A stretch of 64,000 nt of DNA from a virus (IMGVR_UViG_3300037502_002220:1-64000), one strand, 5' to 3'; counted from the first letter of the stretch, positions 9,918 to 28,160 are shown. Numbers and translations are program-made. The notes: generated from the sequence alone by a model not told the origin.

Positions 9918-10211
9918 ATGCCTACAGTATTAAGTACAGAATATTTTGAGTGTGGTGTTTTATCTGGTCCTGTTACTAGAAAGATTAAACTTGTATATGA
10001 TGAATCAGGTACAGGTATTCTTGTATGGGATTTAGATAATGGAGATCTACCTGATAATGTTGCAGAATACTTTGAAGTATATGCTAACGGTAAACGTTTA
10101 GATTACCCAGCAGAATTTACTGTTCAGGAGTTTAGTACACCTATAACTTCTACGATAACGATATTGAATCCTATGCCAATGGCTTATTACACTTTAATTA
10201 AATATTCATGA
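9918..10211 (+). CDS. Small beta-rich structural protein
   Basis: 'EVYANGKRL...EFTV' motif common in phage fibre/baseplate repeats. Confidence 0.55.
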   Translation: MPTVLSTEYFECGVLSGPVTRKIKLVYDESGTGILVWDLDNGDLPDNVAEYFEVYANGKRLDYPAEFTVQEFSTPITSTITILNPMPMAYYTLIKYS

Positions 10212-13200
10212 AACGGATAGTACTATTTATACTTTTAGCTTTACCTGTATTTGTATACAGTCAGATTCCTAATATCAACCCTAGAAATATTAGGTTGCTT
10301 TACCAAACAACAGGTGATGGTATTATTTGGCGTGGTAGCGATAGTATTAACTATACACCTACTACTGTTGGTAATGCATGGATGCATTTAGACACAGTTA
10401 ATAACAAACTGTACTCGTATGTACAAGGTCAGTGGCAGCTTATTAAAGCTGGTGGATTAACTGGTGTATATATGAACCAAGACACGTTGTTTTTAACTAC
10501 TGTAGATACTGTATTCTACACGTTAATAACACCAGATAGTATTCAATACAACAGTAGTCTTCAAGTATTATCTATTAAAAAAGGTAATAGTATCACACTA
10601 GCTGTAAATAAAGACAGCACTTTAATAGGTAATAATACACTAGCATCTCCTTTAGGTATAAATAATACTAACGTACCATTGTTTAAAGATACTTTATCTT
10701 CGTTAGCTACTAAAGCTAATGTAGCACTTAAGCTAAATATATCAGATACTAGTGCAATGCTAGCTAACTATGTTAACTTTAGTGATACATTATCTGTTTC
10801 TGATGGTGGTACAGGAAAAACTAAACTAGATATTAATAGAGTTTTATTTGGTAATGACACATTACCTATAGGTACAGATAATAATCTATACTGGAGTAAT
10901 GCAAATAACAGGTTGTTAGTAGGTACTGGTTGGTTAAGAAACCCTCCAGGTAGTCTTGTTACATCTCGTTTAACTTCGTTTGCTGCAGATAGTAGTACTG
11001 TATTCCCTGGTCAAGTTACATATAATCACTTGTTAAACTATTTATCAACATCAGTATATGATAATGCTGCAGCATTGTTTGTATCTGGTACACCTAATAC
11101 ATATAGTTACGTAAGTGTAAATAGTCCTGAGACAGTACTTATCTTAGGTAGAATGGGTTTTGAAGGTCCCGCGTATGGAAATATAGTTAGGTTTGATTTA
11201 TCAAAACACACCCTTTTTGAAAATGAACCTAGAACTAGAATGGATATTCGTTTATCTGCAGTAGACGAAGAAGGTGATAACACACCTATTGTAATGACAC
11301 TGAGATCAGATTATAGAGTAGGTATTAATCAACCTACACCTAGCACTACGTTAGATGTTAACGGTACCGTTAAAGTATCTAATCTTGTTTTATACACACC
11401 TACGAGGTTAGTAGGTGCTGATGCAAACGGTGCACTTGGTGATATCGCACTAGGGGGAGGGTTAACTTTAGTAAATGATACGTTGTACGGTCAAGATACT
11501 ACTTCTCTGTACAACCAGTTAAACTTAAAGTTAAACATCTCTGATACGGCTTCGATGCTTACTAACTACATTAATGTAGTTGATACTGCATCTATGCTAG
11601 CTCCTTATCTTAGGTTAGCTGATACATCTGCAATGCTTACTAACTACGTGAATATTGCAGATACTGCTTCAATGCTAAGTACTTATATGCAGTATGTAGA
11701 TACCGTATCATTATCTAACCGTATTAACACGAAACAAGATCAGCTTAACGGCACTGGGTTTGTAAAAGTAAATGGTACCGTAATTAGTTATGATACATCT
11801 ACATATCTTAAAAATAATGTAGATTCTATTATATTTAATACTACTTACGAAGGTGTAGCTCAACACGGTGAGGTTATTTGGAATAATCAAAATGGTACGT
11901 TAATGCTAGGTATGGCTAATAATGTAGAAATACCATTAGGTCAAGGTGAAGCTCACTTAGTTAAGAATGTAACTGGTAATGTTATACCTAAAGGTAAAGT
12001 AGTTTATATATCCGGTGCTACTGGTCAGAAACCTCAAATAAGTTTAGCTAGTGCATCTAGTGAAAGTACAAGTTCTAAGACATTTGGTATTACAGCAGAA
12101 GATATTGATAATAATGATACTGGATTTGTATTTGTATCTGGTTATGTACACGGTATTAAAACAGATACGTTTACAACAGGTCAAGCATTGTGGTTAAGTT
12201 CAAATGGTAATATAACTAACATACCACCACAGACACCATTACATTCGGTGTTTGTTGGTTATGCAATTAACCAAAAGATTAACGGCACTGTATTTGTTAA
12301 GATTCAAAATGGTTACGAACTTGATGAGCTTCATGATGTTAAGATAACTAGTCCTACTGAACGTGATGTACTTATGTACGATTCTACGTTGAAGTACTGG
12401 GTTAATAAAGCTATCTTACCTAGTGTAAAAGGTACGTATTATACATCTACAGGCGCAGATCTTACATCAACCCAAACTGATTCTATTATTAACATGGCAG
12501 GTTCTCATGCTATATATTTACACTTACAGTCTGGTGCAAGTTCTAATCTTCAGTTGTTGTTAAGCTATCCTGGTGATGACGATTTAGGTAAGATATTAAC
12601 TGTATACGCTCAAGATGACGATAATACATGGGGTGTACAAATAGGATCTGATATCTGGGTAGGTGTTAACTTTATACCTACGTATAATATGTTTAACGGT
12701 CAAACAGTAACATTATCTGCTCAAAAAACGAGTGTAGGTAATAGATGGGTGGTAGTTAACGATCCACAAGATTTATCTTTATCTGGTCAAACGTTAGCAA
12801 TTAGTGGTGGTGGTACAAGTGTAACATTACCTGTAGTTGGTGTTACTGCTGGTACTGGTATTAATACAAGTACTACTAGTGGTAATGTAACTGTTAACTT
12901 AGCTAACTCAGGTGTGAGTGCAGGTACTTATAATAACTCAGCTACATCAGTTACACCTATAACTGTAGATACTACAGGTCGTATAACAGGTACTGGTTCT
13001 CCAGTTACTATAACACCAGCTTGGTCTAGTATTACATCTACACCTACTACAATAAGTGGTTATGGTATTACAGATGCATATACTAAAACTGAAGTAGATA
13101 ACTTCTTACAAGGTTTAGATCCTAAAGCATCCGTAAAAGCTGCTACTGTAGCTAACATTACATTATCTGGTGAACAAACTGTAGATAATATTGCGTTAGT

Positions 13201-16200
13201 TACTGGTGATAGAGTCTTGGTAAAGAATCAAGATTCAGCTCCTGAGAATGGTATTTACATAGTATCTACTAGTACTTGGTCTAGATCATCAGATATGAAC
13301 AGTGCTAATGAATTTGCTGGAGCTTATGTGTTTGTAGAACAAGGTAATGTAAATGCTGATAGAGGTTATGTATGTACCAGTGATGTAGTAAGCGTAGGTG
13401 TAAGTGCTGTGAACTTTGTACAGTTTACAGGTTCTGGTGCATATCAACCTGTTCTTACTGGAACAGGATATGTATATACAAATAATGGAACTGTAACTTA
13501 TGTATCAGGCACCGCATCTGAGTTTGTAAAAGCAAACGGTACGTTAGATAACACTGCGTACTACCCGCTTAGTAACCCTGCTGGATATACTTCAAACGTA
13601 GGTACTATCACTGGAGTAACTGCAGGTACAGGTTTATCTGGTGGTGGTACATCTGGTACTGTAACATTAAATTTAGCTAATACTACAGTAACGCCTAGTA
13701 CATATGGAGACGCAGCTACTGTACCTGTATTTACTGTAGATGCTCAAGGTAGGATAACTAATGCTACTAACACTAACATATCAATACCACTTGCTCGTAT
13801 AACTCAAACGGGAGCTTCAACAGGTCAAGTGATTAAGTGGAGTGGTTCTACTTGGGCACCATCTACTGACTTAACTGTGTATAACTCTGACGGTACTCTG
13901 ACTGCTAACAGAATTTTAGATTTAAGCACATATGACTTTACTTTTAGAAAAAGTGCAAATGAATATGTTAGAATAGGCGATAGGTACATTAAAATTACAG
14001 ATGTTACTGCTGGGTATGAAACAACAGTAGATCGCACTGGTATACAAAATACTACGACTACAGGATCACTTGATTCTAGGATTGATATGATATCTGGTAT
14101 TATACTGCTGCGTGCAGAAAACGCTATTACAGCAGGAGGTAGTACTTCAGATATTAAAATAAATACAGATGGTAAGATTACATTTAGAGTAGATGCTACA
14201 GGACCTATTACTAACATATATGGTAAAAACAGCAGTGGTGAACTAACTAGTACTGCTGCTAGTACAGTAGGTCTCAACTTATTATCTGCTTCAAGTACTG
14301 CTGCTGTAAGAAATGATCTTGATGTAACACCTAAATGTGGAGCTATTATCAACGGAAAGTGGAGAGAGTTTATGTGTTATAATCTTGGGTCAGTAAACAT
14401 GAATGCAGATCCTTTTACACCAAGTTGGGAGATTATAGGTGACTACTGGCAATGGGGTAAAAAAGTACAACAGGCATTTAGTCCAACTGGAAGTGGAGCT
14501 GGAGAAGCTAACGATGGAGTCGTATCTTGGACTACAGTAATATTTGAAGTAAATCAATATAATAATGCTGCAAAAACAGCAAATGATCCATGTCCTGAAG
14601 GTTATAGAGTACCAACAGATGATGAATGGCAGTCGTTAATTACTCAATATAGTGGAGGTACTCCAGTAGGTGATTGGACAAACTCTGCAACAAATTATAC
14701 TTCTGGTAGAAAATTTGGCGATAATCTTTTCTTACCTGCAGCAGGAGCTAGAAATAGTTCAAATGGTTCTTTGTTTAATCGTGGATCTAATGGTTATTAC
14801 TGGACTAGTGCCAGTACTAGTACTTCTAACGCTAAGTATTTACTTTTTAATTCAACTACTGCTAGCGTAAATACATTTAATAAAACTCATGGTGTATCCG
14901 TAAGATGTATTTCAGAGATACCTGCAAATGTAGGAAGTGAAGTAGTTGGTACTGGTTATGCAAATCTTGCTCCTCCTGTAAATGGTATGATTGTAGAAGG
15001 TAATGTAGGGATAGGAAATAATGATCCTACGTCTCGTTTACATGTAAGTGGTAACACTACGCTAGATGGTACAATAGGATTAAGAGCTTCATCTACTACA
15101 TCTGCTGCTACTCAAATACCTGTATTTACACAAGATCCTACATCAATTACTAGGACTCTATCAACTAGAACTCCAGCTCAGTTACTGAGTGACATAGGAG
15201 CTGGTACTGTATCTAGCGTAGGACTTTCTTTACCTACTAATATATTTACAGTATCAAACTCTCCTGTTACTACTTCAGGTACACTTACAGGAGCACTAGC
15301 AAATCAAAATGCAAATCTTGTATTCGCAGGACCTACTAGTGGTTTAGCAGCAGCACCTACTTTTAGAAGCCTAGTGTCTGCAGACATACCTCTTATAGAT
15401 TTAGCTACTAAAGTATCAGGTCAACTACCAGTAGCTAATGGTGGTACTGGACAAGCAACGTTAGCTGCTGCTGGAATTGTAACAGGTACTGCTACTGCTG
15501 GTCAAGTTGCATTCTGGAATGCAGCAAATACGCAAGCTGGTGACGCTAATCTAATTTGGGATAATATCTTAAAAAGATTTAGAATTGGTCCAGTAGCACC
15601 GCTATCAAGTAATTATGCGGGAGTTGGTGATTTTTCTGTTACTAAAAATGGTGTACTGCCTATTAGTTTAACTGCGTATTCAAATGATCCAACTTCTGCT
15701 CCTACAATTTTATATCAAAGAGCTAGAGGAACTGGAGCTGCGCCCGCAACAATAAATGCTGGAGATTATATAGGGTCATTTAGTTTTGAAGGTTATCATA
15801 GAACAACAGGCCAAAGATCAAGTTCTTTTATAGGAGTATTTGCTGAACAGAATTTTACTGAAAATTCTTTTCCCAGTTCAATTTTCTTTAGTACTGGTGG
15901 TACGGCTACTTTATCAGAGCGTCTCCGCATAACTAGTGCGGGCAGTGTCAATATTGGAGGTGATTATGGGCAAACGGCAGATAGATTTAAAGTTACTGGT
16001 ACTGCGGTTTTTACTGATTTGGTTACATCTGGTAGAGGGTTTTTAATCAATAGTGGTCAATACTCATCTATAGCAACAATACCGTATGCTGGAATGTTCC
16101 TATCCGACGCATATTTTAATCCAAATGAAGATGGATTTGGTAGCTTGTTTATAACATCTAGAAGTGATGCTGCTCGACCTATTGTGTTTGGTACATCAAC

Positions 16201-18550
16201 TGGAAGTGTTCTTACAGAAAGAATGCGTATAGCAGGTAACGGTAACGTAGGTATAGGTACGGCAACACCTACGGAAAGATTGACTGTAAATGGAAATATT
16301 TTGGTCTCAGGTACCAATCCTTTATTAACAACTACGTACCCAAACTATCTTTGGGTGACACCTATATTAACTGCGATGGCTGGAGAAAGCTTTAGTGATG
16401 CAGGTATGATAGGAATACTATATGATAGAAATGAGTTAACTAACGCTGGGTATAGGGGAGACATTACAATTTCAGGTAGTGCACTACAAAGTGTTAGCAA
16501 CAATAAGGCTGAGACAAATGTTTTAGTTGACAGTCGTGGAACGTTTAGTGGTAACATGGTTTTAAAAAGTAGTGTTTTGTCTACAGATAATGTAATAATT
16601 AATATTACACTTCCGTCTTTTGTTGGAAACTATTCTAGTGCAAGATGGCAACCTTTTTTACAAATGAGATTAAGTACACTTTCTGGATATTCATACCCAA
16701 GAGCTATAAAAGTTGAAGTGTCTAGTGATAATGTAAATTGGTATACTAATAGCACATGGCAAACAACAAATTTTGTTTCATCTACTGGATTTTGGATAGG
16801 AGAATTTGGTGTTCCTAACACACCATCTCCTGCACTTACAGATTGGAGATACGCGAGATTTATATTAAGCGATTTTAGTATAGGAGTAATTTCCAATTTA
16901 TGGATTAGTGAAATAGGTATAAGGCACCTTTCTGCACCTCCTGCTAGACAATATTTAAACCAAGTAGGTACTAACACTCAATATGGATCTAATTTTATTT
17001 ATGGTTTATCAGAAACTGAAGGTACGCCGTTGTCTATATTTAATTCTAACTTAACTTCGTTATTACATGTTAGTAACATAGGTAGAGTTGGTATAGGAAC
17101 AAATGATCCACAGGCTATGTTAGATATAAGAAGAAGTACCAATGCTAATGAAGGAAGCGCATTTCCTCGAATTAATATACAAAACACATCAACTGTTCAG
17201 GGAACTGGAAGTGGTCCCACACCTAACAACTTTGCTGATATTTCCATAAGTTCAGGAAATACGGCTGTTAATATGTTAATTGGGACTTCTTTTGGTACAG
17301 GTAATTTCTTCCCTCAAGGAAGTATTAATGTGACTACTTCACATCCGCTTCTTTTTAAAACTACTAACACTGAACGTATGCGTATAACTAGTGGCGGTAA
17401 CGTAGGTATAGGTACTACAACTCCTAATACTATATTAGATGTGTATAGCAATGCCGATATATGGCATTTTATGATTGGTGGAGCCACTTCCAAACTTTTA
17501 ATTGCAGGACAAGGAGTACTTGGAACCGTACTTCAAGGCGCTCCGGGTAATCACCCTAATAATACAGTTGTAACAACCCCATACAATATTGTGTTTCAAA
17601 GAGATGGCGGTAACGTAGGTATAGGTAATGTAGCACCACAAAACAGATTACACGTACATACAGCATCTGCTGCAACATCATACGCTCAGTTTACTAATAC
17701 TGTTACAGGGGCATCTACTTCAACAGCAGGTTTACTCGTAGGTGTAAGTTCTAGTGGTAACGGTTTTGTGGGAATTAATTCATCTGATGGTTTTATAAGC
17801 TTTAGTACTGGTACTAGTTCTGTAGAACGTATGCGTTTTACAAGTTCAACAGACATAATTATAGGAAGTGGCGAAGGTACAGGTTTAACAGGTCTTGGTA
17901 AATTGCGAGGGACTAATGGAGCTGGAACTAACGCAGCAGGAGGAGACTTTTACATAGAAGGTGGTAGAAGTACTGGATCTTCATCTGGCGGTAGCATATA
18001 CTTTCAAACTTCTCCTAGTGGATCAGCAGGAACAACACCAAATACAATAACTGAACGTATGGTAATACAGGGCAGTGGTAATATTAAATTAAACAGTGTC
18101 GTGTATGGTAACACAACAAATGCTAACACTAGAACTTTATACATAGGTGATAATTATATAATTGGTGGAGTGTCGTCTATCAGAGCTTCTAAGAAAAACA
18201 TAACGGATATAGATTCTGTAGACTACCTGTATCAATTACAACCAGTAACGTTCAACTATCGTAAAAAAGATAGTAACGGTAATTATACAGAGGAAATTTA
18301 CGAGGAAAGAGTCCATGGTCTTATTGCAGAAGATGTTTCACCAGTAGCAGACTTTTTAGTTAACTACGATGTTAACCAGGATGGTACTAAAAAGATGATA
18401 GGTATTGAATACCCAAGATTAATAGTACCTTTACTTAAAGCTGTGCAAGATCAGAAATCAGAAATTGATGAGCTAAAAACTAAACTACAAGCTCAGAATG
18501 ATGTTATTAATTTATTAATCAAACGTATAGAAGCGTTAGAACAGAAATAA
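10208..18550 (+). CDS. Giant mosaic tail fibre/spike: signal peptide, DT(A/S)xML repeats, Fib_succ_major domain, GNVGIG repeats, C-terminal peptidase S74 chaperone
   Basis: 2780 aa. C-terminal 'SSIRASKKNITDI...LQPVTFNY...GLIAEDV...GIEYPRLIVPLLKAVQD' plus coiled coil is an S74 intramolecular chaperone. Multiple 'ERMRI..GNVGIGT' fibre repeats. Confidence 0.9.
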   Translation: MKRIVLFILLALPVFVYSQIPNINPRNIRLLYQTTGDGIIWRGSDSINYTPTTVGNAWMHLDTVNNKLYSYVQGQWQLIKAGGLTGVYMNQDTLFLTTVDTVFYTLITPDSIQYNSSLQVLSIKKGNSITLAVNKDSTLIGNNTLASPLGINNTNVPLFKDTLSSLATKANVALKLNISDTSAMLANYVNFSDTLSVSDGGTGKTKLDINRVLFGNDTLPIGTDNNLYWSNANNRLLVGTGWLRNPPGSLVTSRLTSFAADSSTVFPGQVTYNHLLNYLSTSVYDNAAALFVSGTPNTYSYVSVNSPETVLILGRMGFEGPAYGNIVRFDLSKHTLFENEPRTRMDIRLSAVDEEGDNTPIVMTLRSDYRVGINQPTPSTTLDVNGTVKVSNLVLYTPTRLVGADANGALGDIALGGGLTLVNDTLYGQDTTSLYNQLNLKLNISDTASMLTNYINVVDTASMLAPYLRLADTSAMLTNYVNIADTASMLSTYMQYVDTVSLSNRINTKQDQLNGTGFVKVNGTVISYDTSTYLKNNVDSIIFNTTYEGVAQHGEVIWNNQNGTLMLGMANNVEIPLGQGEAHLVKNVTGNVIPKGKVVYISGATGQKPQISLASASSESTSSKTFGITAEDIDNNDTGFVFVSGYVHGIKTDTFTTGQALWLSSNGNITNIPPQTPLHSVFVGYAINQKINGTVFVKIQNGYELDELHDVKITSPTERDVLMYDSTLKYWVNKAILPSVKGTYYTSTGADLTSTQTDSIINMAGSHAIYLHLQSGASSNLQLLLSYPGDDDLGKILTVYAQDDDNTWGVQIGSDIWVGVNFIPTYNMFNGQTVTLSAQKTSVGNRWVVVNDPQDLSLSGQTLAISGGGTSVTLPVVGVTAGTGINTSTTSGNVTVNLANSGVSAGTYNNSATSVTPITVDTTGRITGTGSPVTITPAWSSITSTPTTISGYGITDAYTKTEVDNFLQGLDPKASVKAATVANITLSGEQTVDNIALVTGDRVLVKNQDSAPENGIYIVSTSTWSRSSDMNSANEFAGAYVFVEQGNVNADRGYVCTSDVVSVGVSAVNFVQFTGSGAYQPVLTGTGYVYTNNGTVTYVSGTASEFVKANGTLDNTAYYPLSNPAGYTSNVGTITGVTAGTGLSGGGTSGTVTLNLANTTVTPSTYGDAATVPVFTVDAQGRITNATNTNISIPLARITQTGASTGQVIKWSGSTWAPSTDLTVYNSDGTLTANRILDLSTYDFTFRKSANEYVRIGDRYIKITDVTAGYETTVDRTGIQNTTTTGSLDSRIDMISGIILLRAENAITAGGSTSDIKINTDGKITFRVDATGPITNIYGKNSSGELTSTAASTVGLNLLSASSTAAVRNDLDVTPKCGAIINGKWREFMCYNLGSVNMNADPFTPSWEIIGDYWQWGKKVQQAFSPTGSGAGEANDGVVSWTTVIFEVNQYNNAAKTANDPCPEGYRVPTDDEWQSLITQYSGGTPVGDWTNSATNYTSGRKFGDNLFLPAAGARNSSNGSLFNRGSNGYYWTSASTSTSNAKYLLFNSTTASVNTFNKTHGVSVRCISEIPANVGSEVVGTGYANLAPPVNGMIVEGNVGIGNNDPTSRLHVSGNTTLDGTIGLRASSTTSAATQIPVFTQDPTSITRTLSTRTPAQLLSDIGAGTVSSVGLSLPTNIFTVSNSPVTTSGTLTGALANQNANLVFAGPTSGLAAAPTFRSLVSADIPLIDLATKVSGQLPVANGGTGQATLAAAGIVTGTATAGQVAFWNAANTQAGDANLIWDNILKRFRIGPVAPLSSNYAGVGDFSVTKNGVLPISLTAYSNDPTSAPTILYQRARGTGAAPATINAGDYIGSFSFEGYHRTTGQRSSSFIGVFAEQNFTENSFPSSIFFSTGGTATLSERLRITSAGSVNIGGDYGQTADRFKVTGTAVFTDLVTSGRGFLINSGQYSSIATIPYAGMFLSDAYFNPNEDGFGSLFITSRSDAARPIVFGTSTGSVLTERMRIAGNGNVGIGTATPTERLTVNGNILVSGTNPLLTTTYPNYLWVTPILTAMAGESFSDAGMIGILYDRNELTNAGYRGDITISGSALQSVSNNKAETNVLVDSRGTFSGNMVLKSSVLSTDNVIINITLPSFVGNYSSARWQPFLQMRLSTLSGYSYPRAIKVEVSSDNVNWYTNSTWQTTNFVSSTGFWIGEFGVPNTPSPALTDWRYARFILSDFSIGVISNLWISEIGIRHLSAPPARQYLNQVGTNTQYGSNFIYGLSETEGTPLSIFNSNLTSLLHVSNIGRVGIGTNDPQAMLDIRRSTNANEGSAFPRINIQNTSTVQGTGSGPTPNNFADISISSGNTAVNMLIGTSFGTGNFFPQGSINVTTSHPLLFKTTNTERMRITSGGNVGIGTTTPNTILDVYSNADIWHFMIGGATSKLLIAGQGVLGTVLQGAPGNHPNNTVVTTPYNIVFQRDGGNVGIGNVAPQNRLHVHTASAATSYAQFTNTVTGASTSTAGLLVGVSSSGNGFVGINSSDGFISFSTGTSSVERMRFTSSTDIIIGSGEGTGLTGLGKLRGTNGAGTNAAGGDFYIEGGRSTGSSSGGSIYFQTSPSGSAGTTPNTITERMVIQGSGNIKLNSVVYGNTTNANTRTLYIGDNYIIGGVSSIRASKKNITDIDSVDYLYQLQPVTFNYRKKDSNGNYTEEIYEERVHGLIAEDVSPVADFLVNYDVNQDGTKKMIGIEYPRLIVPLLKAVQDQKSEIDELKTKLQAQNDVINLLIKRIEALEQK
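11522..11730 (+). repeat. Five tandem ~13-aa repeats (hhhxDTASMLxxY) in the fibre stalk
   Basis: LNISDTASMLTNY / INVVDTASMLAPY / LRLADTSAMLTNY / VNIADTASMLSTY / MQYVDTVSLSNR; a further copy at about 10733-10790. Confidence 0.85.
16240..17627 (+). repeat. Three identical 20-nt direct repeats CGGTAACGTAGGTATAGGTA (encoding GNVGIG)
   Basis: Copies at 16240-16259, 17395-17414 and 17608-17627. Confidence 0.85.
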
Positions 18551-18584: not shown

Positions 18585-19208
18585 ATGAACAGGATTTTTG
18601 TATTTGTTTTCATGTTTCCTTTTTTCTTGAATGCTCAAGAAGTAACTGCAGACAGCTTCAAGATTTTTAAGCAAGACGTACTTATTGATAGTGTAAGTAC
18701 ACAAATTTATGTACGTCAGATGCTTACTAACTTTGACAACTTCTCTGCAAATCTAGATCAAGTACCTATGGGTGACAGTGCTTCTGCTGTAAACAACCTA
18801 GCATCTTGGCAAATTCAAAGAGTACGCGATCATGCTTACATCGTAGGCGTAGCTATGCAAAAGCCAGCTATTTTGCGTCAGTGGAACAAAGTAAGTGCCG
18901 AGATGGTAGCTAATGGATTTCCAGCACTAGCTACTGTAGTTCAGAATTATTTTGAGAATGCGTTTATTGGTGACGTTAAAGTAAAAGTAGGTACTGCTGA
19001 TTTTGTACAAGGTACTGTAACTAAAAATGCTCAGGGTATTCTTAGGTTGAAGTACGGGACTAATGACTACAGGGTTACAATCTTTTGTGATCGTATGATT
19101 AGGATTGTAAACTATCCTACTCAAGGTCAATCTACTGATCTTTATGCAGTAAACAACAACAACTTGTTTGCTGACATGGATCGTGATATTGTAATCAAGT
19201 TTAAGTAA
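18585..19208 (+). CDS. Secreted protein with Sec signal peptide, function unknown (possible fibre partner)
   Basis: MNRIFVFVFMFPFFLNA|QEV: h-region, small residue at -1, Gln at +1. Confidence 0.65.
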   Translation: MNRIFVFVFMFPFFLNAQEVTADSFKIFKQDVLIDSVSTQIYVRQMLTNFDNFSANLDQVPMGDSASAVNNLASWQIQRVRDHAYIVGVAMQKPAILRQWNKVSAEMVANGFPALATVVQNYFENAFIGDVKVKVGTADFVQGTVTKNAQGILRLKYGTNDYRVTIFCDRMIRIVNYPTQGQSTDLYAVNNNNLFADMDRDIVIKFK

Positions 19209-19278: not shown

Positions 19279-19611
19279 ATGAAGAATCCATTTTTAGAAA
19301 AACTTAAAGTTGTGTTCGGTAAAGGAGCTGAGGTACAAACTATTGACGATAGTCTTAGTGATACCATCAAATTACTTAAAGCATCTTTAAATCAGATGCG
19401 TGAACAACGTACTACACTACAAACAGAAATTCAACGTCAAAAAGATCTATCTGTACAAGCTCGTACACGTATTAAAGATCTTCAAAACGAGATTGTAGCA
19501 CACAATATTAGTGCTGAGAATGCAGAAACTAAAGTTAGGCAGATGCACGAACAACTTGTAAAACTTGATGAAGATGTACGTCGTGTTCATGAACATCTAA
19601 AAAAGATTTAA
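19279..19611 (+). CDS. Coiled-coil protein
   Basis: 110 aa with a continuous heptad pattern. Confidence 0.65.
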   Translation: MKNPFLEKLKVVFGKGAEVQTIDDSLSDTIKLLKASLNQMREQRTTLQTEIQRQKDLSVQARTRIKDLQNEIVAHNISAENAETKVRQMHEQLVKLDEDVRRVHEHLKKI

Positions 19612-19612
19612 C

Positions 19613-20053
19613 ATGTCTATGGAACTAATTAAAACTGCACTTAAGTACTACGGTGTTAAAGAATTTCCCGGCACTGATAAAAATAGTCCTACTATTGTAG
19701 GTTGGCTTAGGAGTATGTTACCTTGGGCTAACAACGATGAAATAGCTTGGTGCTCTGCATTTGTGAATGGTATTGCTAAAGAAGCTAAGTTTGAACACTT
19801 TCCTAGTACACACAATAATGCACTAGCTAGAGAGTGGTTAAAGAAAGGTACTGCAGTTACCACACCACAACTAGGTGATGTAGTAGTACTGTGGCGTGGT
19901 TCTAAAGATGCAGTCACTGGTCACGTAGGATTTTATATCCGTGAGAATACAGATAATGTATTCTTGCTAGGTGGTAATCAATCTGATTCTGTAAACATTA
20001 CAGCATTTCCTAAGTCAAGAGTACTTGGTTATAGGAGACTTAAAAAACTTTAA
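19613..20053 (+). CDS. TIGR02594-family NlpC/P60-CHAP-like peptidoglycan hydrolase (putative endolysin)
   Basis: 'YYGVKEFPG', 'DEIAWCSAFVN' (catalytic Cys), 'GDVVVLWR', 'GHVGFY' (His), 'LLGGNQSDSV'. Confidence 0.9.
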   Translation: MSMELIKTALKYYGVKEFPGTDKNSPTIVGWLRSMLPWANNDEIAWCSAFVNGIAKEAKFEHFPSTHNNALAREWLKKGTAVTTPQLGDVVVLWRGSKDAVTGHVGFYIRENTDNVFLLGGNQSDSVNITAFPKSRVLGYRRLKKL

Positions 20054-23452: not shown

Positions 23453-24192
23453 TTAAGTACGTACCGTTAGAAGCTATATTAAACTACATCCCTGATGCTA
23501 TTCGTGAGCAGGTAGATGCCCAGCAGATAATGTCATGGGCATATCTACTTTATAGGACTATAGAAATGCCTATCTCTGAAGAACTCAAGATCGTAGATGT
23601 TGAAGTTAAAAACCACAGGGTTAAGTTACCTGATGATGTTAAACGCATTATCAACGTAATTCATAATGAACCTGGTGTCGATGTACCTAAAGAGATTGTA
23701 CGTGATTACGGTGATGGTAGGTTAATTATAGCACAAGAGATATTCTTTTCTTCCCAGTATTATCAACAAGCTCGTGGTCTAAAGTACTTAGGTCAGATGA
23801 AGAGTCCTTTAATCGATGAGCAACTGTATTGTAGCAGGTGTGATGTAGGATTTTCTATTGATAAAACATTAAGTTGTTTACACATAGATTATCCTGATGG
23901 TAATGCTACGTTGATATACTACGCTCCTGTAGAAGAGAATGGTAAGAAGATGATACCAGATGATCCAGATCTTATGCTTGCGATATCACACTTTGTACAA
24001 GCTAGATACTGGCAAGAGAAAACCTATTCACACGAATCTAATGCAATAGCTTTATCTAGTGATCACCACATACGCTCACGTGCGCATTTAAGTGCATTTG
24101 AAGGTAGAGCTAAACTTAAAGCTATAAACGTTAATAAGCATAACGTATTTAGGTTGAGACGAAACAAAATGTATAACTGGAATCGTAACTGA
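23449..24192 (+). CDS. Tail tubular/ring protein (P22 gp4-like)
   Basis: 'IVDVEVKNHRVKLPDD' and 'YYAP..ENG..MIPDD' motifs; immediately precedes the muzzle gene. Confidence 0.75.
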   Translation: MIKYVPLEAILNYIPDAIREQVDAQQIMSWAYLLYRTIEMPISEELKIVDVEVKNHRVKLPDDVKRIINVIHNEPGVDVPKEIVRDYGDGRLIIAQEIFFSSQYYQQARGLKYLGQMKSPLIDEQLYCSRCDVGFSIDKTLSCLHIDYPDGNATLIYYAPVEENGKKMIPDDPDLMLAISHFVQARYWQEKTYSHESNAIALSSDHHIRSRAHLSAFEGRAKLKAINVNKHNVFRLRRNKMYNWNRN

Positions 24193-27100
24193 TGTTTAAC
24201 GGAATGTGGAAAGATGGTGAACCTGAAGCACAGCCACAGGGCACCTATAGAATGGCTATCAATGCTGTAAAAGAACCAGGAGAACCTGCACTAGCTACAG
24301 AACCTTCTAACGTAGAAGTATCTGAACTAGAAGGTATTATCTGTGGTGTAGTATCACTAGATGGTGAACATGCTGTTGTGTTTACTAAACCTGGTAATAT
24401 CTATTTATACAACCAGAATAGCAAAAGCTCTACACTACTTGTAGAACTACCTTGTTTAAACTTTAGTGAAAACCATCGTATACAAGGTAAGTATAAGGTA
24501 GTAAATGGTTGTGAGCGTGTAATCTATTGGAATGATGGTTTAAATGAAGATAGATACTACAACTTAGATAAGCCTAGTATATTCCGTGAGTGTGATGACT
24601 TTAGGTTAACATTATCTGCTCCATACCCTAACATAAAAACAGAAGTTATTTCTGGTGGTATACTTAAGAAAGGTAGTTATCAGTTTGTTATTGAACTACT
24701 AGATACTTCTAGGAACGTTACATTAAAAACAATACCTACAGAACCTGTATATGTGTATCAAGAAGGTCAAGGTATTCGTATTAATATCTCTGGTATTGAC
24801 GCTGCTTTTGTTCGTATTAACGCTATCTCGTACACAGCAACTAACGGTATTACATTAGAAGCTTTTGAGTACGAAGATATCATACCTGTAACAGGAACTA
24901 CCTTAGCGTGGAACTATGACGGTAATAACGTAATCGCTAAAGACTTTAGGAGTTTACTTACTGTACCTGTAAACTTTGATACGTCTAGGTACATGGAGAT
25001 TGTTCATGGTAGATTGCTTAGAGGTAATGTAAGTGAAAAGCAACAAGACTATACTGCATTTCAACATGCAGCTTCTAAGATATGTACTAAGTACACTGTA
25101 AAAGAATCTGAAGCTAATATCTTTACCGAGCTTGGTGATGAAGTAAAAGCTTATGGTATTGTATATCTACACAAGAATGGATCACTAAGTCCTGTGTTTC
25201 ATATTCCAGGTAGAAATAAAACTACTAAAGATAGTGAGTTAGTAACTGGTCCTGATATTACAGTAGCTGATGTAGAGAATGTTACATTGTCGTTTAAAGG
25301 TATTATAGTACCTGTAGGTAACTTCTGGATGCTTAGCTTTAACTTATCTGCAGATAAACCTATTTCATCGTCTGAAGTTACTTTTTACAACGAAACAAGT
25401 ACACAATCATCTACTGCTACATCAGCTTCGTTATCTATACCTAAGATAGTTTCTGGCTCTACTGATGATAACCTGCTGTTAGAAAATAACTTTATTAAAG
25501 TAAGTATTGTAGTTGGAGATAAGAAGTTTGATTACATCTTTGAAACTAAGTTTGACATAGATGAAAATGTATTGTTAACTGAAAGTACACCAGTTGATGC
25601 TGTAAATAAGTTTGAACGCTGGGTGTTTAACAATACTGCTGATAAAGCTACTAGCTCTATGGGCTACTACGCTTCTAGTGAATCGTACAACAACCCAGTA
25701 AATTACTGTGGTGAAGATTACTGGGGTGTAGATTGTGATGGTAAACCACTTGTGCGTACTCCAGTTAGATATCATAAAATACCTTCTAGGTTTATAGAAC
25801 CACTAACAGATGGTAGTAAGAAAAGATATATTGGAGTGAAGTTTACGAATGTGACATATCCATCTACAGATATCGTAGGTCATTTCTTTGTAACTAGCTC
25901 TGGTGAAACAATAGCATCTAGTGGTTATGCACTACCGTTTAATGATAAAGGTGATAACACTGGAGATAAAGAAGAAGGTAGGTTTGTACATTACTTACCT
26001 AATAGTTTTGATAACGAAAGGTTTAGTAATAGTTTAAATCAGAATATTATAACACCTACTAGTCTAGTAGATAAGACTAATGTCACGTGTAATTACATTT
26101 ATGTTAACGGTGAGTATGCTGAACAGTATTCTGATAACAGACCTTTTTATAACAAGTTTTTTGTAGATAAAACAGATTTACAGTTATTTGGTAAGCATCA
26201 TCAATATACTAAAGGGTTTACACCTAGAGAAGAATTACTTACTGCTGTATCTTCTGAATATGTATTGTACGCTGCTAAACGTAAAGAATACGTTAACAGG
26301 TCATTAAATCACGGGATGAATATTATTAAAGTTAAGGAGTTTCCTAGCTTTAATAGTAACAGTGCTAACATGCGCTATGTATATCTTAAGCGTGCAATAC
26401 AACCATTTCAAAGTGTATTTGCTATACGGTATAGGTTTATGAATACCACACCATTAACAGGTACTTCCGCAGAACTGTATGCTGGTGAGTATAAAATAAC
26501 AAGTCCTGAGATTATAAATATTAGTGATTTGTTTCCTAAAGGTGGTGTTAAAATTAAATGGTACGAAATTGCAAGTTTAATAGCTGGACCTAAACTTCTT
26601 GGTAGTTTGTTAGAATCAGATCAGATTAACGTAGAATATGAGTGGATATCTAATCTGTATTTTGAATCTCCTTACGATTTTAAAAACATTGAGGATAAAT
26701 ATTACTTTTCTCCAGGTGTAGATGGTAAGGATGCTATAGGTAGTTTTGTACAAACGCTAATCTCAGATGGATATTTTGAAGAAGGTAAAACTAAAAATAC
26801 ACTAAAGGATTCTATAGAGCTTATAAACTATAAAGTAAACAAAGACTATGGTGTAGTAAACAACTTAAGGATAATGTATCCTTTACCTGTATCTTTTGAT
26901 TACTGCTTATCGTGTAGATTTCATTATCCAGCTAGGATTGTATTTAGTGATGTAAACTCTCAAGAGCAACAGTCTGATTCTTGGAGATTATATCCAGCGT
27001 TAAACTATACAGATCTACCTGCGCACAGAGGTAGTCTAACTGCATTTGATTACACAGGTGGTAGTATACTAGCTAGAATGGAACGTGGTCTATTCTTTTT

Positions 27101-28160
27101 ACAACCAGATCCACAGACAATAGAAACAGATACTTCTACGATATACTTAGGTACACCTAGATTTTTATCTATACCACCTCAAGAGATGGCTAAAGATAAT
27201 AACGGTTACGCAGGTCAACAAAGTAGAATGGCTAGTGTAAGTACTCCTGCTGGTTTATTCTGGTACGATGAAGATGCTGGTAAAGTATTTGGTTACGATG
27301 GTAAGATCAATGAGATATCTAGAAAAGGTATGTACACCTTCTTTGATCGTAAATCACAAGCTGGTAAATACTTTAGAGATAATAACTTAACGTGGTATAG
27401 AGATAAAACAAGTATGTCCTATGACCCTAAGTACGAACGCGTAATGCTACACTGCGATGATACGTACAACAACAAAGTATATTCATTTACGGTATCGTAT
27501 ACTATACCAGTACAGAGTTGGACTAGTTTTCATTCGTATCAACCAGATGGTATGTTCTACTTAAATAGAACATTCTATACGTATCTTAATAATAAACTAT
27601 ATTCTCACAACGAAGATGATTATACGTTCTGTAAGTTCTACGGCGTACAACATCCATATCAAGTAGGCTTAGTATACGTAGCTGGTCAAACACAACAATG
27701 GCATAGTGTACATTACTACGCACCTGTGTTTAAGTTTGAGAATGGTATTTGGAAAGATGTACTAAATAAAACATTTAATAAAGCGTTTGCATTTACACGT
27801 AGACAAACTACAGGTATCGTAGATCTTCTTTTAACTAGCGATCCACAAGAGATCATCACGTGGAACGAAAGAACTAAAACTGTAATACAAGCAGATAGGA
27901 ATTATCGTATTGCTAGCCTTAGAGATATATCTGTAGGTGATGGTGTCACTAGTTCTAGGTGGGAAGATGTACAAGAGTTCTATGTTAATGGCCAAGGGTA
28001 TCAAGATATCATACCTGTTAACACAGACTTTGAAAAACCACAGTATGAACAACTTATGTTCAGGGATAAATTTATCCAAGTTCGTTTACTGTTTTATCCT
28101 AATGAACATAAAATGTTGACTTATATCATAGACTTTACTAAATTAGCACAAACACGTTAA
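24192..28160 (+). CDS. Muzzle / tail stabilisation protein (P22 gp10-like)
   Basis: 1322 aa; 'GMWKD....QPQGTYRMAINA', 'IYWNDGLNEDRYYNLD', 'DEVKAYGIV....G..SPVFHIPGR', 'WTSFHSYQPD', 'FRDKFIQVRL'. Confidence 0.85.
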   Translation: MFNGMWKDGEPEAQPQGTYRMAINAVKEPGEPALATEPSNVEVSELEGIICGVVSLDGEHAVVFTKPGNIYLYNQNSKSSTLLVELPCLNFSENHRIQGKYKVVNGCERVIYWNDGLNEDRYYNLDKPSIFRECDDFRLTLSAPYPNIKTEVISGGILKKGSYQFVIELLDTSRNVTLKTIPTEPVYVYQEGQGIRINISGIDAAFVRINAISYTATNGITLEAFEYEDIIPVTGTTLAWNYDGNNVIAKDFRSLLTVPVNFDTSRYMEIVHGRLLRGNVSEKQQDYTAFQHAASKICTKYTVKESEANIFTELGDEVKAYGIVYLHKNGSLSPVFHIPGRNKTTKDSELVTGPDITVADVENVTLSFKGIIVPVGNFWMLSFNLSADKPISSSEVTFYNETSTQSSTATSASLSIPKIVSGSTDDNLLLENNFIKVSIVVGDKKFDYIFETKFDIDENVLLTESTPVDAVNKFERWVFNNTADKATSSMGYYASSESYNNPVNYCGEDYWGVDCDGKPLVRTPVRYHKIPSRFIEPLTDGSKKRYIGVKFTNVTYPSTDIVGHFFVTSSGETIASSGYALPFNDKGDNTGDKEEGRFVHYLPNSFDNERFSNSLNQNIITPTSLVDKTNVTCNYIYVNGEYAEQYSDNRPFYNKFFVDKTDLQLFGKHHQYTKGFTPREELLTAVSSEYVLYAAKRKEYVNRSLNHGMNIIKVKEFPSFNSNSANMRYVYLKRAIQPFQSVFAIRYRFMNTTPLTGTSAELYAGEYKITSPEIINISDLFPKGGVKIKWYEIASLIAGPKLLGSLLESDQINVEYEWISNLYFESPYDFKNIEDKYYFSPGVDGKDAIGSFVQTLISDGYFEEGKTKNTLKDSIELINYKVNKDYGVVNNLRIMYPLPVSFDYCLSCRFHYPARIVFSDVNSQEQQSDSWRLYPALNYTDLPAHRGSLTAFDYTGGSILARMERGLFFLQPDPQTIETDTSTIYLGTPRFLSIPPQEMAKDNNGYAGQQSRMASVSTPAGLFWYDEDAGKVFGYDGKINEISRKGMYTFFDRKSQAGKYFRDNNLTWYRDKTSMSYDPKYERVMLHCDDTYNNKVYSFTVSYTIPVQSWTSFHSYQPDGMFYLNRTFYTYLNNKLYSHNEDDYTFCKFYGVQHPYQVGLVYVAGQTQQWHSVHYYAPVFKFENGIWKDVLNKTFNKAFAFTRRQTTGIVDLLLTSDPQEIITWNERTKTVIQADRNYRIASLRDISVGDGVTSSRWEDVQEFYVNGQGYQDIIPVNTDFEKPQYEQLMFRDKFIQVRLLFYPNEHKMLTYIIDFTKLAQTR

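What the first reader, a model, noticed from the sequence alone, without database searches (positions are those of the whole stretch)
10208..13240. Tail fibre with Sec signal peptide and a dense array of Bacteroidota O-glycosylation sequons
SEEN: the fibre starts MKRIVLFILLALPVFVYS|Q, a signal peptide with Gln at +1. By hand count there are 16 strict D-(S/T)-(A/I/L/V/M/T) motifs in the first ~540 aa and 20 in the first ~1010 aa, but only 1 in the remaining ~1770 aa. The 13-aa stalk repeats each carry a DTA, DTS or DTV. KNOWN: D(S/T)(A/I/L/V/M/T) is the sequon of the general Bacteroidota O-glycosylation system, which acts on exported proteins. Gln at +1 (pyroglutamate 'Q-rule') is typical of Bacteroidota SPI substrates. 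Phage fibres normally fold in the cytoplasm and lack signal peptides. INFERENCE: the phage exports this fibre to the periplasm to be glycosylated by the host. It either joins virions at lysis as a host-glycan-coated stalk, or is displayed on the infected cell.
Basis: partly seen in the sequence, partly recalled or inferred. Interest (0 to 1): 0.88.

Follow-up and report, generated by a model that had tools for sequence, protein, structure and literature searches.

The report
Exported, sequon-rich crAss-like phage tail fibre
A crAss-like phage of Bacteroidota gives its giant tail fibre, and the small gene after it, the host's own secretion signal and packs the fibre's base with the host's sugar-attachment motif, so this host-recognition part probably matures outside the cytoplasm, a route I found described in no paper for tailed phages.

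Summary
Observation confirmed. ORF 10208-18550 (2780 aa) starts with MKRIVLFILLALPVFVYS|Q. It has 16 strict D-(S/T)-(A/I/L/V/M/T) motifs in aa 1-540 (about 3 expected), 20 in aa 1-1010 and 1 in the rest.

The leader is real and conserved. In 102 distinct homologous N-terminal modules, -1 is always A/G/S, -3 is A/L/V/I/G, +1 is always Q, and the apolar run is 14-16 aa. The hydrophobic core drifts (37% identity) while the mature start is 87% identical.

The module sits in the fibre slot of three unrelated phage types and is rare in cellular genomes. In the closest relative the fibre is split into three ORFs, each with its own leader. The next gene (18585-19208) is a conserved, leader-bearing partner (hhalign 98%).

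Glycosylation is plausible but unproven. Sequons outside the 13-aa repeat are also enriched and keep their class among homologues. The repeat itself has T 96% versus S 1%, which points to a structural role for its D-T too. The distal D-S/T depletion is not specific.

Virion proteomics of cultured Cellulophaga phage phi18:3 lists three leader-bearing proteins, so such proteins can reach virions.

The scan has noted this on other DNA (at least 51 genomes). I found no paper describing it.

The parts
10208..18550 (+). Tail fibre preprotein, 2780 aa, mosaic
   Evidence: Only long ORF. It has Pfam Peptidase_S74 and Fib_succ_major and PHROG tail-fibre hits. tblastn matches annotated tail fibres and virion proteins of cultured phages. 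It lies between the Crass_capsid gene (834-2432) and the crAss_MUZ muzzle gene (24192-28160).
10208..10261 (+). Sec/SPI-type signal peptide, aa 1-18, predicted cleavage VYS|Q
   Evidence: Sequence read. In 102 homologous modules -1 is A87/G11/S4, -3 is A/L/V/I/G, +1 is Q in all, and the apolar run is 14-16 aa in 95%.
10262..10462 (+). Conserved N-terminal module (Q-I/Y/F-P...N-K-x-R-L-G-x-Q-T-T-G-D-G-x-x-W-R-G...L-D-T-V-N), with one invariant D-T site and one frequent one
   Evidence: Alignments A1, A4 and A5. At least 86 IMG/VR contigs carry it, against 5 contigs among 185,579 species genomes.
10262..10897 (+). Proximal sequon-rich region, aa 19-230: 9 strict sequons vs 1.2 expected
   Evidence: 23 of 29 aligned tripeptides in homologues remain sequons, with S/T and I/L/V/T swaps.
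11525..11722 (+). Five 13-aa stalk repeats (N-I-x-D-T-A/S-x-M-L-x-x-Y-x), aa 440-505
   Evidence: D-T spacing of 13. TRF 78-nt unit at 11541-11686. A logo from 1248 units gives D 93%, T 96%, M 93%, L 100%, Y 95%.
11825..12457 (+). Fibre domain (aa about 540-750) shared with leaderless tail fibres of cultured phages and with 64 of the related loci
   Evidence: tblastn hits to the tail fibre of Pseudomonas phage Rollin and the tail protein of Nitrincola phage. Local tblastn against the loci.
14336..14911 (+). Lectin-like Fib_succ_major domain holding 4 of the protein's 5 cysteines
   Evidence: Pfam PF09603, E 3.3e-12, aa 1451-1568. Cysteines at 1377, 1390, 1462 and 1567.
15689..15904 (+). Stalk segment homologous to the Bdellovibrio MAT fibre Bd2439
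   Evidence: phmmer against PDB finds 8OL4, E 8.3e-10, aa 1828-1899. 8OL4 is Bd2439 in PMC10769870.
18188..18349 (+). C-terminal S74 intramolecular chaperone domain, followed by a coiled coil
   Evidence: Pfam PF13884, 23.5 bits against a cut-off of 22. PDB 6F45 (T4 long tail fibre tip), E 0.0011.
18585..19208 (+). Leader-bearing partner protein, 207 aa (MNRIFVFVFMFPFFLNA|Q), conserved directly after the fibre in unrelated phages
   Evidence: hhalign against alignment A3 gives 98.1%, E 1.3e-13, 193 columns. Synteny is seen in L004, L083, L042, L054, L063, L036 and L017. AF2 pLDDT is 80-93 for aa 63-207, with no significant fold match.
9918..10211 (+). Upstream 97-aa ORF, translationally coupled to the fibre (ATGA). 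Conserved only in the closest relative.
   Evidence: 60% identity in L002.

Best explanation
The 2780-aa tail fibre is made as a Sec/signal-peptidase-I preprotein.

Proposed sequence of events:
1. The 18-aa leader takes the unfolded chain across the inner membrane of a Bacteroidota host.
2. Cleavage after VYS exposes Gln19. This fits the Bacteroidota Q-rule, in which the exposed Gln is probably cyclised to pyroglutamate.
3. The host's general O-glycosylation system then meets about 16 D-(S/T)-hydrophobic sites in the proximal 540 aa. These lie in the conserved N-module, its following beta-rich region and the 13-aa stalk repeats.
4. The chain trimerises with the help of its ATP-independent C-terminal S74 chaperone.
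5. A co-exported 207-aa partner, encoded directly downstream, acts with it as an assembly helper or adaptor.
6. The finished fibre meets the cytoplasm-built crAss-like particle only when the envelope is breached at lysis.

Shown here: the leader, its conservation and cleavage-site pattern, the two-gene cassette, the sequon excess, the phage origin and the fibre identity.

Inferred: translocation, cleavage, glycosylation, the partner's role, and docking at lysis.
For: - Leader anatomy and conservation. 102 of 102 modules have a small -1 residue and Q at +1, and the apolar run is 14-16 aa in 95% of them, too short for a stable membrane anchor. The h-region is 37% identical against 87% for the mature start.
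- All 85 fetched homologous loci have the hydrophobic segment plus A/G/S-Q.
- In the closest relative, L002, the fibre is three ORFs, each with its own leader and Q.
- The partner is conserved with its leader.
- The module is phage-borne. At least 86 viral contigs carry it, against 5 MAG contigs. It sits in the fibre slot of a siphovirus-like locus and a third virion type.
- Fibre domains are homologous to leaderless fibres of Pseudomonas and Nitrincola phages. PhicrAss001 gp22-26 have no leader and sequons at chance.
- Sequon excess: 16 vs about 3, while the rest of the proteome has a ratio of 1.04.
- The excess holds outside the repeat, at 8 vs 1.2. Sequon class is conserved among homologues.
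- Over 87 loci, observed/expected is 1.24 for leaderless ORFs, 2.24 for N-module fibres with repeats masked, and 3.13 for other leader proteins.
- 110 of 114 repeat-bearing homologues with a readable N-terminus have a leader.
- Feasibility: Bdellovibrio MAT fibres combine a signal peptide, a conserved N-domain, a mosaic trimer and S74, and they function outside the cytoplasm (PMC10769870). Our fibre shares a stalk segment with one of them.
- Leader-bearing proteins gp085-087 of Cellulophaga phage phi18:3 are annotated as virion proteins from MS/MS.
- The review PMC12871550 says sequons in noncytoplasmic Bacteroidota proteins are generally almost fully occupied.
- Host signals: no Shine-Dalgarno use, relatives in Saprospiraceae and Sediminibacterium MAGs, and the Q-rule (PMC5837995).
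Against: - There are no experimental data for this phage. No SignalP run was possible, and the host is unknown.
- The repeat fixes T over S (96% vs 1%) together with M, L and Y. The review reports a slight preference for S at glycosylated sites. The repeat's D-T may therefore be structural.
- The phi18:3 leader-bearing virion proteins are not sequon-rich (1 vs about 3 each), so export does not require sequons.
- The distal D-S/T depletion also occurs in leaderless giant fibres. It is not general among other leader-bearing fibres (232 vs 170).
- One N-module shared by three virion types is odd for a virion-docking domain.
- No route by which a periplasmic fibre joins a cytoplasmic particle has been described.
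- Most siphovirus-type relatives carry a 45-aa extension in front of the hydrophobic segment, which could make it a signal anchor there.
Confidence: 0.6

Rival explanations
1. The fibre is exported, but the D-T motifs are structural parts of the stalk repeat and N-module (for example helix caps or turns of a trimeric fibre). Any glycosylation is incidental or absent.
For: - The 13-mer logo has T 96% vs S 1% and invariant M-L..Y with a strict period of 13.
- The D-T of the N-module (L-D-T-V-N) is invariant, like a fold residue.
- phi18:3 leader proteins have no sequon excess.
Against: - Eight non-repeat sequons vs 1.2 expected in aa 19-230.
- S/T and I/L/V/T swaps stay inside the sequon class in homologues.
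- The non-homologous partner family keeps a D-(S/T)-A site.
- Other leader proteins of these phages are also sequon-rich.
- According to the review, accessible sequons in exported Bacteroidota proteins are usually occupied (PMC12871550).
Confidence: 0.2
2. The protein is exported but is not a virion part. The fibre and partner act in the envelope of the infected cell or on debris. They could, for instance, mask receptors so that progeny are not lost, exclude superinfection, or act as a free adhesin.
For: - No known path joins a periplasmic fibre to a cytoplasmic particle.
- The same N-module occurs in three virion types, which fits a host-envelope ligand better than a phage-specific socket.
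- P. gingivalis phages encode Q-rule proteins of unknown function that were proposed to alter the host surface (PMC10367356).
Against: - The gene lies inside the virion module between the capsid and muzzle genes.
- In L016 it is the only fibre-like gene between the tape measure/distal tail genes and the holin.
- Its domains are virion fibres in cultured phages.
- Leader-bearing proteins are found in phi18:3 virions.
Confidence: 0.13
3. The hydrophobic N-terminus is not cleaved. It tethers the fibre to the inner membrane as a signal anchor, or is a buried helix in the tail, and no soluble periplasmic fibre exists.
For: Siphovirus-type relatives carry a conserved 45-aa basic amphipathic extension before the hydrophobic segment, which resembles a type II anchor with a cytoplasmic domain.
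Against: - The apolar run is 14-16 aa in 95% of modules, short for a membrane span.
- -1 is small in 102 of 102 modules, -3 is A/L/V/I/G, and Q follows in every case.
- The core sequence is free to vary.
- This phage has only MKR before the segment.
- Each split piece in L002 has its own leader.
Confidence: 0.07

Closest known systems
Bdellovibrio bacteriovorus mosaic adhesive trimer (MAT) fibres (Caulton et al. 2024, PMC10769870)
   Same: The architecture matches: signal peptide, a conserved beta-rich domain right after it, a mosaic trimeric phage-like stalk, swappable tips, and a C-terminal S74 chaperone in many members. The fibres function outside the cytoplasm. aa 1828-1899 of this fibre match Bd2439 (PDB 8OL4, E 8.3e-10).
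   Different: MAT fibres are cellular genes of a predator and sit on its surface. This one is encoded in the virion module of a crAss-like phage. Homology of the two N-domains was not tested. MAT fibres carry no Bacteroidota sequon array.
Leader-bearing virion proteins gp085, gp086 and gp087 of Cellulophaga phage phi18:3 (Pachyviridae, NC_021794)
   Same: They are three consecutive proteins of a cultured Bacteroidota phage with canonical leaders ending S/A|Q. They are annotated as structural from MS/MS of virions.
   Different: There is no sequence homology to this fibre or its partner. They show no sequon excess (1 vs about 3 each). The phage belongs to a different family. I found no paper that discusses the leaders.
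Tail fibres of the cultured crassvirus PhicrAss001 (gp22-gp26, MH675552)
   Same: Both are large fibre or tailspike genes of a crAss-like phage of Bacteroidota.
   Different: gp22-26 have hydrophilic N-termini without a leader, and their sequons are at chance. BLASTP finds no match at E <= 0.01.
Substrates of the general O-glycosylation system of Bacteroidota and the Q-rule (PMC12871550, PMC5837995, PMC10653852)
   Same: SPI leader, Gln at +1, and D-(S/T)-(A/I/L/V/M/T) sites in a noncytoplasmic protein.
   Different: Known substrates are cellular. The review does not mention phage proteins ('phage' occurs 0 times). The density here (about 30 per 1000 aa in the first 540 aa) is far above what composition predicts (about 3 sites in 540 aa).

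Membership tests
Sec/SPI signal peptide, Bacteroidota Q-rule type | Positively charged n-region, apolar h-region of about 7-15 residues, no charge up to the cleavage site | tested here: met
   The sequence is MKR followed by 15 uncharged residues. Homologues have runs of 14-16 aa in 95% of cases and a mean net n-region charge of +6.
Sec/SPI signal peptide, Bacteroidota Q-rule type | Small residues at -1 and -3, Gln at +1 | tested here: met
   V-Y-S|Q here. In 102 modules -1 is A87/G11/S4, -3 is A60/L33/V7/I1/G1, and +1 is Q in all.
Sec/SPI signal peptide, Bacteroidota Q-rule type | Actual translocation and cleavage; score from a trained predictor | not testable with these tools
   No SignalP was available and there are no experiments.
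Substrate of the Bacteroidota general O-glycosylation system | D-(S/T)-(A/I/L/V/M/T) motif present in a soluble region | tested here: met
   There are 21 sites, 16 of them in aa 1-540, against about 3 expected.
Substrate of the Bacteroidota general O-glycosylation system | Protein is noncytoplasmic in a host that has the system | tested here: inconclusive
   Export is inferred from the leader. A Bacteroidota host is inferred from the crAss-like genome, absence of Shine-Dalgarno use, the Q-rule, and relatives in Saprospiraceae and Sediminibacterium MAGs. The host itself is unknown.
Substrate of the Bacteroidota general O-glycosylation system | Glycan detected on the sites | not testable with these tools
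   This needs glycoproteomics.
Phage tail fibre with C-terminal S74 intramolecular chaperone | Peptidase_S74 domain at the C-terminus | tested here: met
   PF13884 scores 23.5 bits against a cut-off of 22, at aa 2661-2714. PDB 6F45 matches at E 0.0011. Candidate catalytic Ser and Lys lie in SSIRASK but were not verified.
Phage tail fibre with C-terminal S74 intramolecular chaperone | Encoded among virion genes and homologous to known fibres | tested here: met
   The gene lies between Crass_capsid and crAss_MUZ. tblastn hits annotated tail fibres and virion proteins.
Phage tail fibre with C-terminal S74 intramolecular chaperone | Present in the virion | not testable with these tools
   The phage is uncultured.
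Bdellovibrio-type MAT fibres | Signal peptide, conserved N-domain, mosaic trimeric stalk, S74 or another tip | tested here: met
   The architecture is the same, and a stalk segment is homologous to Bd2439.
Bdellovibrio-type MAT fibres | Cellular gene whose product is displayed on the producer's surface | tested here: not met
   This gene is phage-encoded. The N-module is in at least 86 viral contigs but only 5 MAG contigs. The repeat is in 2 of 301 Bacteroidota genomes.

The most novel reading that the evidence does not exclude
Many environmental Bacteroidota phages, of at least three virion types, finish their particles outside the cytoplasm. A mobile two-gene cassette (leader-bearing fibre plus leader-bearing partner) is exported by Sec and coated with the host's own O-glycan on its stalk. 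It docks onto the cytoplasm-built particle only at lysis. This would be an extracytoplasmic step in the morphogenesis of tailed phages, and it would mean virions wear host glycan.
Probability: 0.4. Interest if true: 0.9.

Novelty: new variant of a known kind. Interest (0 to 1): 0.76.

Why it matters
Tailed phages are thought to build all virion parts in the cytoplasm. A receptor-binding fibre that goes through Sec would add a new compartment to phage assembly. It would expose fibres to disulfide formation, pyroglutamate capping and host glycosylation, and could put host-type glycans on virions, with possible effects on stability, host range and recognition.

It also has practical consequences. 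Gene callers and annotators may clip or ignore such leaders. Recombinant expression of these fibres in the cytoplasm of E. coli may give the wrong product.

The cassette is common in metagenomes: 1211 representatives at 50% identity match the first 560 aa. The question can be tested in cultured Bacteroidota phages such as phi18:3.

Tried and rejected
Contexts of the metagenomic representatives, including the four leaderless repeat proteins P0105, P0110, P0113 and P0142, could not be read.
- blastn of the region and tblastn of the N-module against the cultured phage collection found nothing.
- The listing of cluster members gave no names.
- AF2 of aa 19-231 with 18 sequences was unusable (pLDDT 50.8), so no fold search was made on it.
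- The partner model is good for aa 63-207. Foldseek against PDB gave nothing at E <= 0.001, only weak lipocalin/LolA-like rows. BFVD gave one unnamed viral protein. The ESM Atlas gave nothing usable.
- Rejected as evidence: the distal D-S/T depletion (4 of 74 D, P 6e-5). The same bias occurs in leaderless giant fibres P0025, P0047 and P0124, and it is absent in other leader-bearing fibres.
- Rejected: a downstream start. It would remove the conserved mature N-terminus.
- Rejected: a T9SS route. The C-terminus is S74 plus a coiled coil, and Pfam called no other domain there. There is also no lipobox.
- Pfam on 54 related fibres gave almost no domains.
- Literature searches for exported or glycosylated tail fibres found no description.

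Full report
**What is there.** The window is the first 64 kb of a 105-kb IMG/VR virus record, 95% complete by CheckV and 35% G+C. It is a crAss-like phage:
- Crass_capsid at 834-2432
- crAss_MUZ muzzle at 24192-28160
- a CARG1 cargo domain
- giant 2186-aa and 2533-aa proteins downstream

ORF 10208-18550 encodes 2780 aa. Its ATG overlaps the stop of the preceding 97-aa ORF. It is a mosaic fibre with these matches:
- PHROG tail-fibre and decoration-like hits
- Pfam Fib_succ_major at aa 1451-1568
- Peptidase_S74 at aa 2661-2714
- PDB sequence matches to a Bdellovibrio MAT fibre (8OL4), a capsid decoration protein and the T4 long-fibre tip
- tblastn matches to annotated tail fibres or virion proteins of Pseudomonas, Nitrincola, Roseobacter, cyanobacterial, Achromobacter and Ralstonia phages

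Composition predicts about 3.1 in the first 540 aa. None of 5000 shuffles reached the observed number. aa 19-230 has 9 vs 1.2 and aa 401-540 has 6 vs 1.2. All other proteins of the phage together are at chance (78 vs 75.3). The five 13-aa repeats carry D-T at 446, 459, 472, 485 and 498.

**Is the leader real?** A phmmer search of aa 1-560 against 1.8 billion representatives gave 1211 hits. A scan of IMG/VR with an alignment of the N-terminus gave at least 86 viral contigs.

All 85 fetched loci have a hydrophobic segment ending A/G/S followed by Q-(Y/F/I)-P and the conserved start of the mature protein.

Over 102 distinct modules, with no constraint put on the -1 position:
- -1 is A (87), G (11) or S (4).
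- -3 is A, L, V, I or G.
- +1 is always Q.
- The uncharged run is 14-16 residues in 95%.

The hydrophobic core is only 37% identical between pairs, while the first 25 mature residues are 87% identical. This is the signature of a cleaved SPI signal peptide. It is not the signature of a structural helix or a membrane span. A start codon further downstream would remove conserved mature sequence.

**Independent support.**
1. In the closest relative (L002) the three upstream genes are 38-60% identical. There the fibre is split into a 215-aa protein with the N-module, a 67-aa protein and a protein of more than 1065 aa with the repeats. Each has its own leader ending in A/G|Q.
2. The next gene in the window, 18585-19208, begins MNRIFVFVFMFPFFLNA|Q. 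It is homologous to leader-bearing proteins of 200-235 aa that follow the fibre in unrelated loci (hhalign 98.1%, E 1.3e-13). Fibre plus partner therefore form a conserved exported cassette.
3. The cassette sits in the fibre slot of a siphovirus-like locus (tape measure, distal tail genes, fibre, holin, endolysin). It also sits in the fibre slot of a third virion type (protease, portal, fibre).
4. The N-module is nearly absent from 185,579 species genomes. Five MAG contigs carry it: three Saprospiraceae, one Sediminibacterium, and one labelled Pseudomonadota. The repeat was found in 2 of 301 sampled Bacteroidota genomes.
5. Homologues of the fibre's aa 538-752 domain in phages of Proteobacteria start without any leader. 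So do the fibres gp22-26 of the cultured crassvirus PhicrAss001.

**Is it glycosylated?** This is inference.

In favour:
- The excess is not confined to the repeat (8 non-repeat sites vs 1.2 in aa 19-230).
- In homologues 23 of 29 aligned tripeptides stay sequons, while S/T and I/L/V/T interchange.
- The unrelated partner family keeps a D-(S/T)-A site.
- Over 87 loci, leader-bearing proteins are sequon-rich even with the repeat masked (2.24 and 3.13, against 1.24 for the rest).
- The membrane-anchored lysis protein gp27 of PhicrAss001 has 4 sites vs 0.3 expected.
- The review of the system states that sequons in noncytoplasmic proteins are generally almost fully occupied (PMC12871550).

Against:
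- A logo of 1248 repeat units gives D 93%, T 96%, S 1%, M 93%, L 100% and Y 95% at a strict period of 13. A pure glycosylation signal should tolerate S, so the repeat's D-T is at least partly structural.
- The leader-bearing virion proteins of phi18:3 have no sequon excess.
- The striking distal depletion (1 vs 6.8 sequons; D followed by S/T in 4 of 74 cases) is also seen in leaderless giant fibres and is not general in other leader-bearing fibres. I do not count it.

**Does it reach the virion?** This is not known.

The gene position and the homology to virion fibres argue yes. In Cellulophaga phage phi18:3, gp085-087 are annotated as structural from MS/MS. I confirmed that all three begin with canonical leaders ending S/A|Q. 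They are analogues, not homologues.

The Bdellovibrio MAT fibres show that phage-like, S74-terminated trimers can fold after Sec export (PMC10769870).

One point argues the other way. The same 65-aa N-module serving three virion types is unexpected for a docking domain. It keeps open the rival reading that the fibre acts in the envelope and not on the particle.

**Host.** The host is unknown. These signs point to Bacteroidota:
- crAss-like gene content
- no Shine-Dalgarno use (4% of genes vs 9% background) with A-rich leaders
- the Q-rule
- the Fib_succ_major domain
- relatives in Saprospiraceae and Chitinophagaceae MAGs

**Prior knowledge.** Q-rule proteins of unknown function have been noted in P. 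gingivalis phages (PMC10367356). I found no paper describing exported or host-glycosylated tail fibres of tailed phages.

This scan has flagged the same phenomenon on other DNA (64 notes in at least 51 genomes). I took three leads from those notes (phi18:3, MAT fibres, PhicrAss001) and checked each myself.

**Verdict.** Export is very likely (about 0.8). Glycosylation of at least some sites is likely if the protein is exported. Virion incorporation is open. This is a new variant of the tail fibre with an extracytoplasmic maturation route. It is of high interest but rests entirely on sequence comparison.

Noticed in passing
L016:9854-12049 and most of L003-L081 (for example L021, L049): Most siphovirus-type relatives carry a conserved basic amphipathic extension of about 45 aa (MEEIKAPKKERKFLK... 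/ MIEKPKKERRFLK...) in front of the same hydrophobic segment and A-x-A|Q-Y-P site. It could be a very long n-region, a cytoplasmic domain of a signal anchor, or a peptide left in the membrane after cleavage. These fibre genes lie next to the holin.
   Followed up: partly
L002:10001-14017: In the closest relative the fibre is three ORFs, each with its own leader and Q. One is a 67-aa mini-protein (MRYIIMLSLLLFTSSIQA|Q...) lying between the N-module protein and the repeat-bearing protein.
   Followed up: partly
L100:11476-17947 (Sediminibacterium MAG, G002:C7): A cellular cousin: a leader (…ACAYS|Q) followed at once by DTxxML repeats in a giant ORF. Its neighbours are chromosomal (ammonium transporter, porin, LuxR-type regulator), not phage genes. 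The assembly has masked N runs inside the gene.
   Followed up: partly
window 19279-20053: Directly after the cassette lie a 110-aa coiled-coil protein and a 146-aa CHAP-domain protein (PF05257, E 6.5e-6), a likely cell-wall hydrolase. The exported fibre cassette therefore abuts lysis-type genes, as it does in the siphovirus-like relatives.
   Followed up: no
window 14336-14911 (fibre aa 1377-1567): Only 5 cysteines occur in 2780 aa, and 4 of them lie in the lectin-like Fib_succ_major domain. This would fit two disulfides formed in the periplasm.
   Followed up: no
L101 (PhicrAss001 MH675552) gp27, record 25093-25695: The membrane-anchored 'lysis regulatory protein' of the cultured crassvirus has 4 sequons against 0.3 expected, while its leaderless fibres are at chance. 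This hints that periplasm-facing phage proteins of Bacteroides phages collect sequons.
   Followed up: no
L090 (same genome, 94915-97759, outside the window): A small cluster on the minus strand holds a methyltransferase (PF13489), a HAD-like protein and a weak, below-threshold GT4 glycosyltransferase match. L016 also has a PHROG glycosyltransferase among its virion genes. A link to glycan modification is possible but was not examined.
   Followed up: no
window 18585-19208: The ESM Atlas holds this protein only from Met10, so a gene call there clipped half of the leader. Automatic annotation may therefore hide such leaders.
   Followed up: no
window 13238-18550 (fibre aa 1011-2780): D is followed by S or T in only 4 of 74 cases (about 17 expected). 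Leaderless giant fibres P0025, P0047 and P0124 show the same bias. It looks like a property of this fibre type and remains unexplained.
   Followed up: partly
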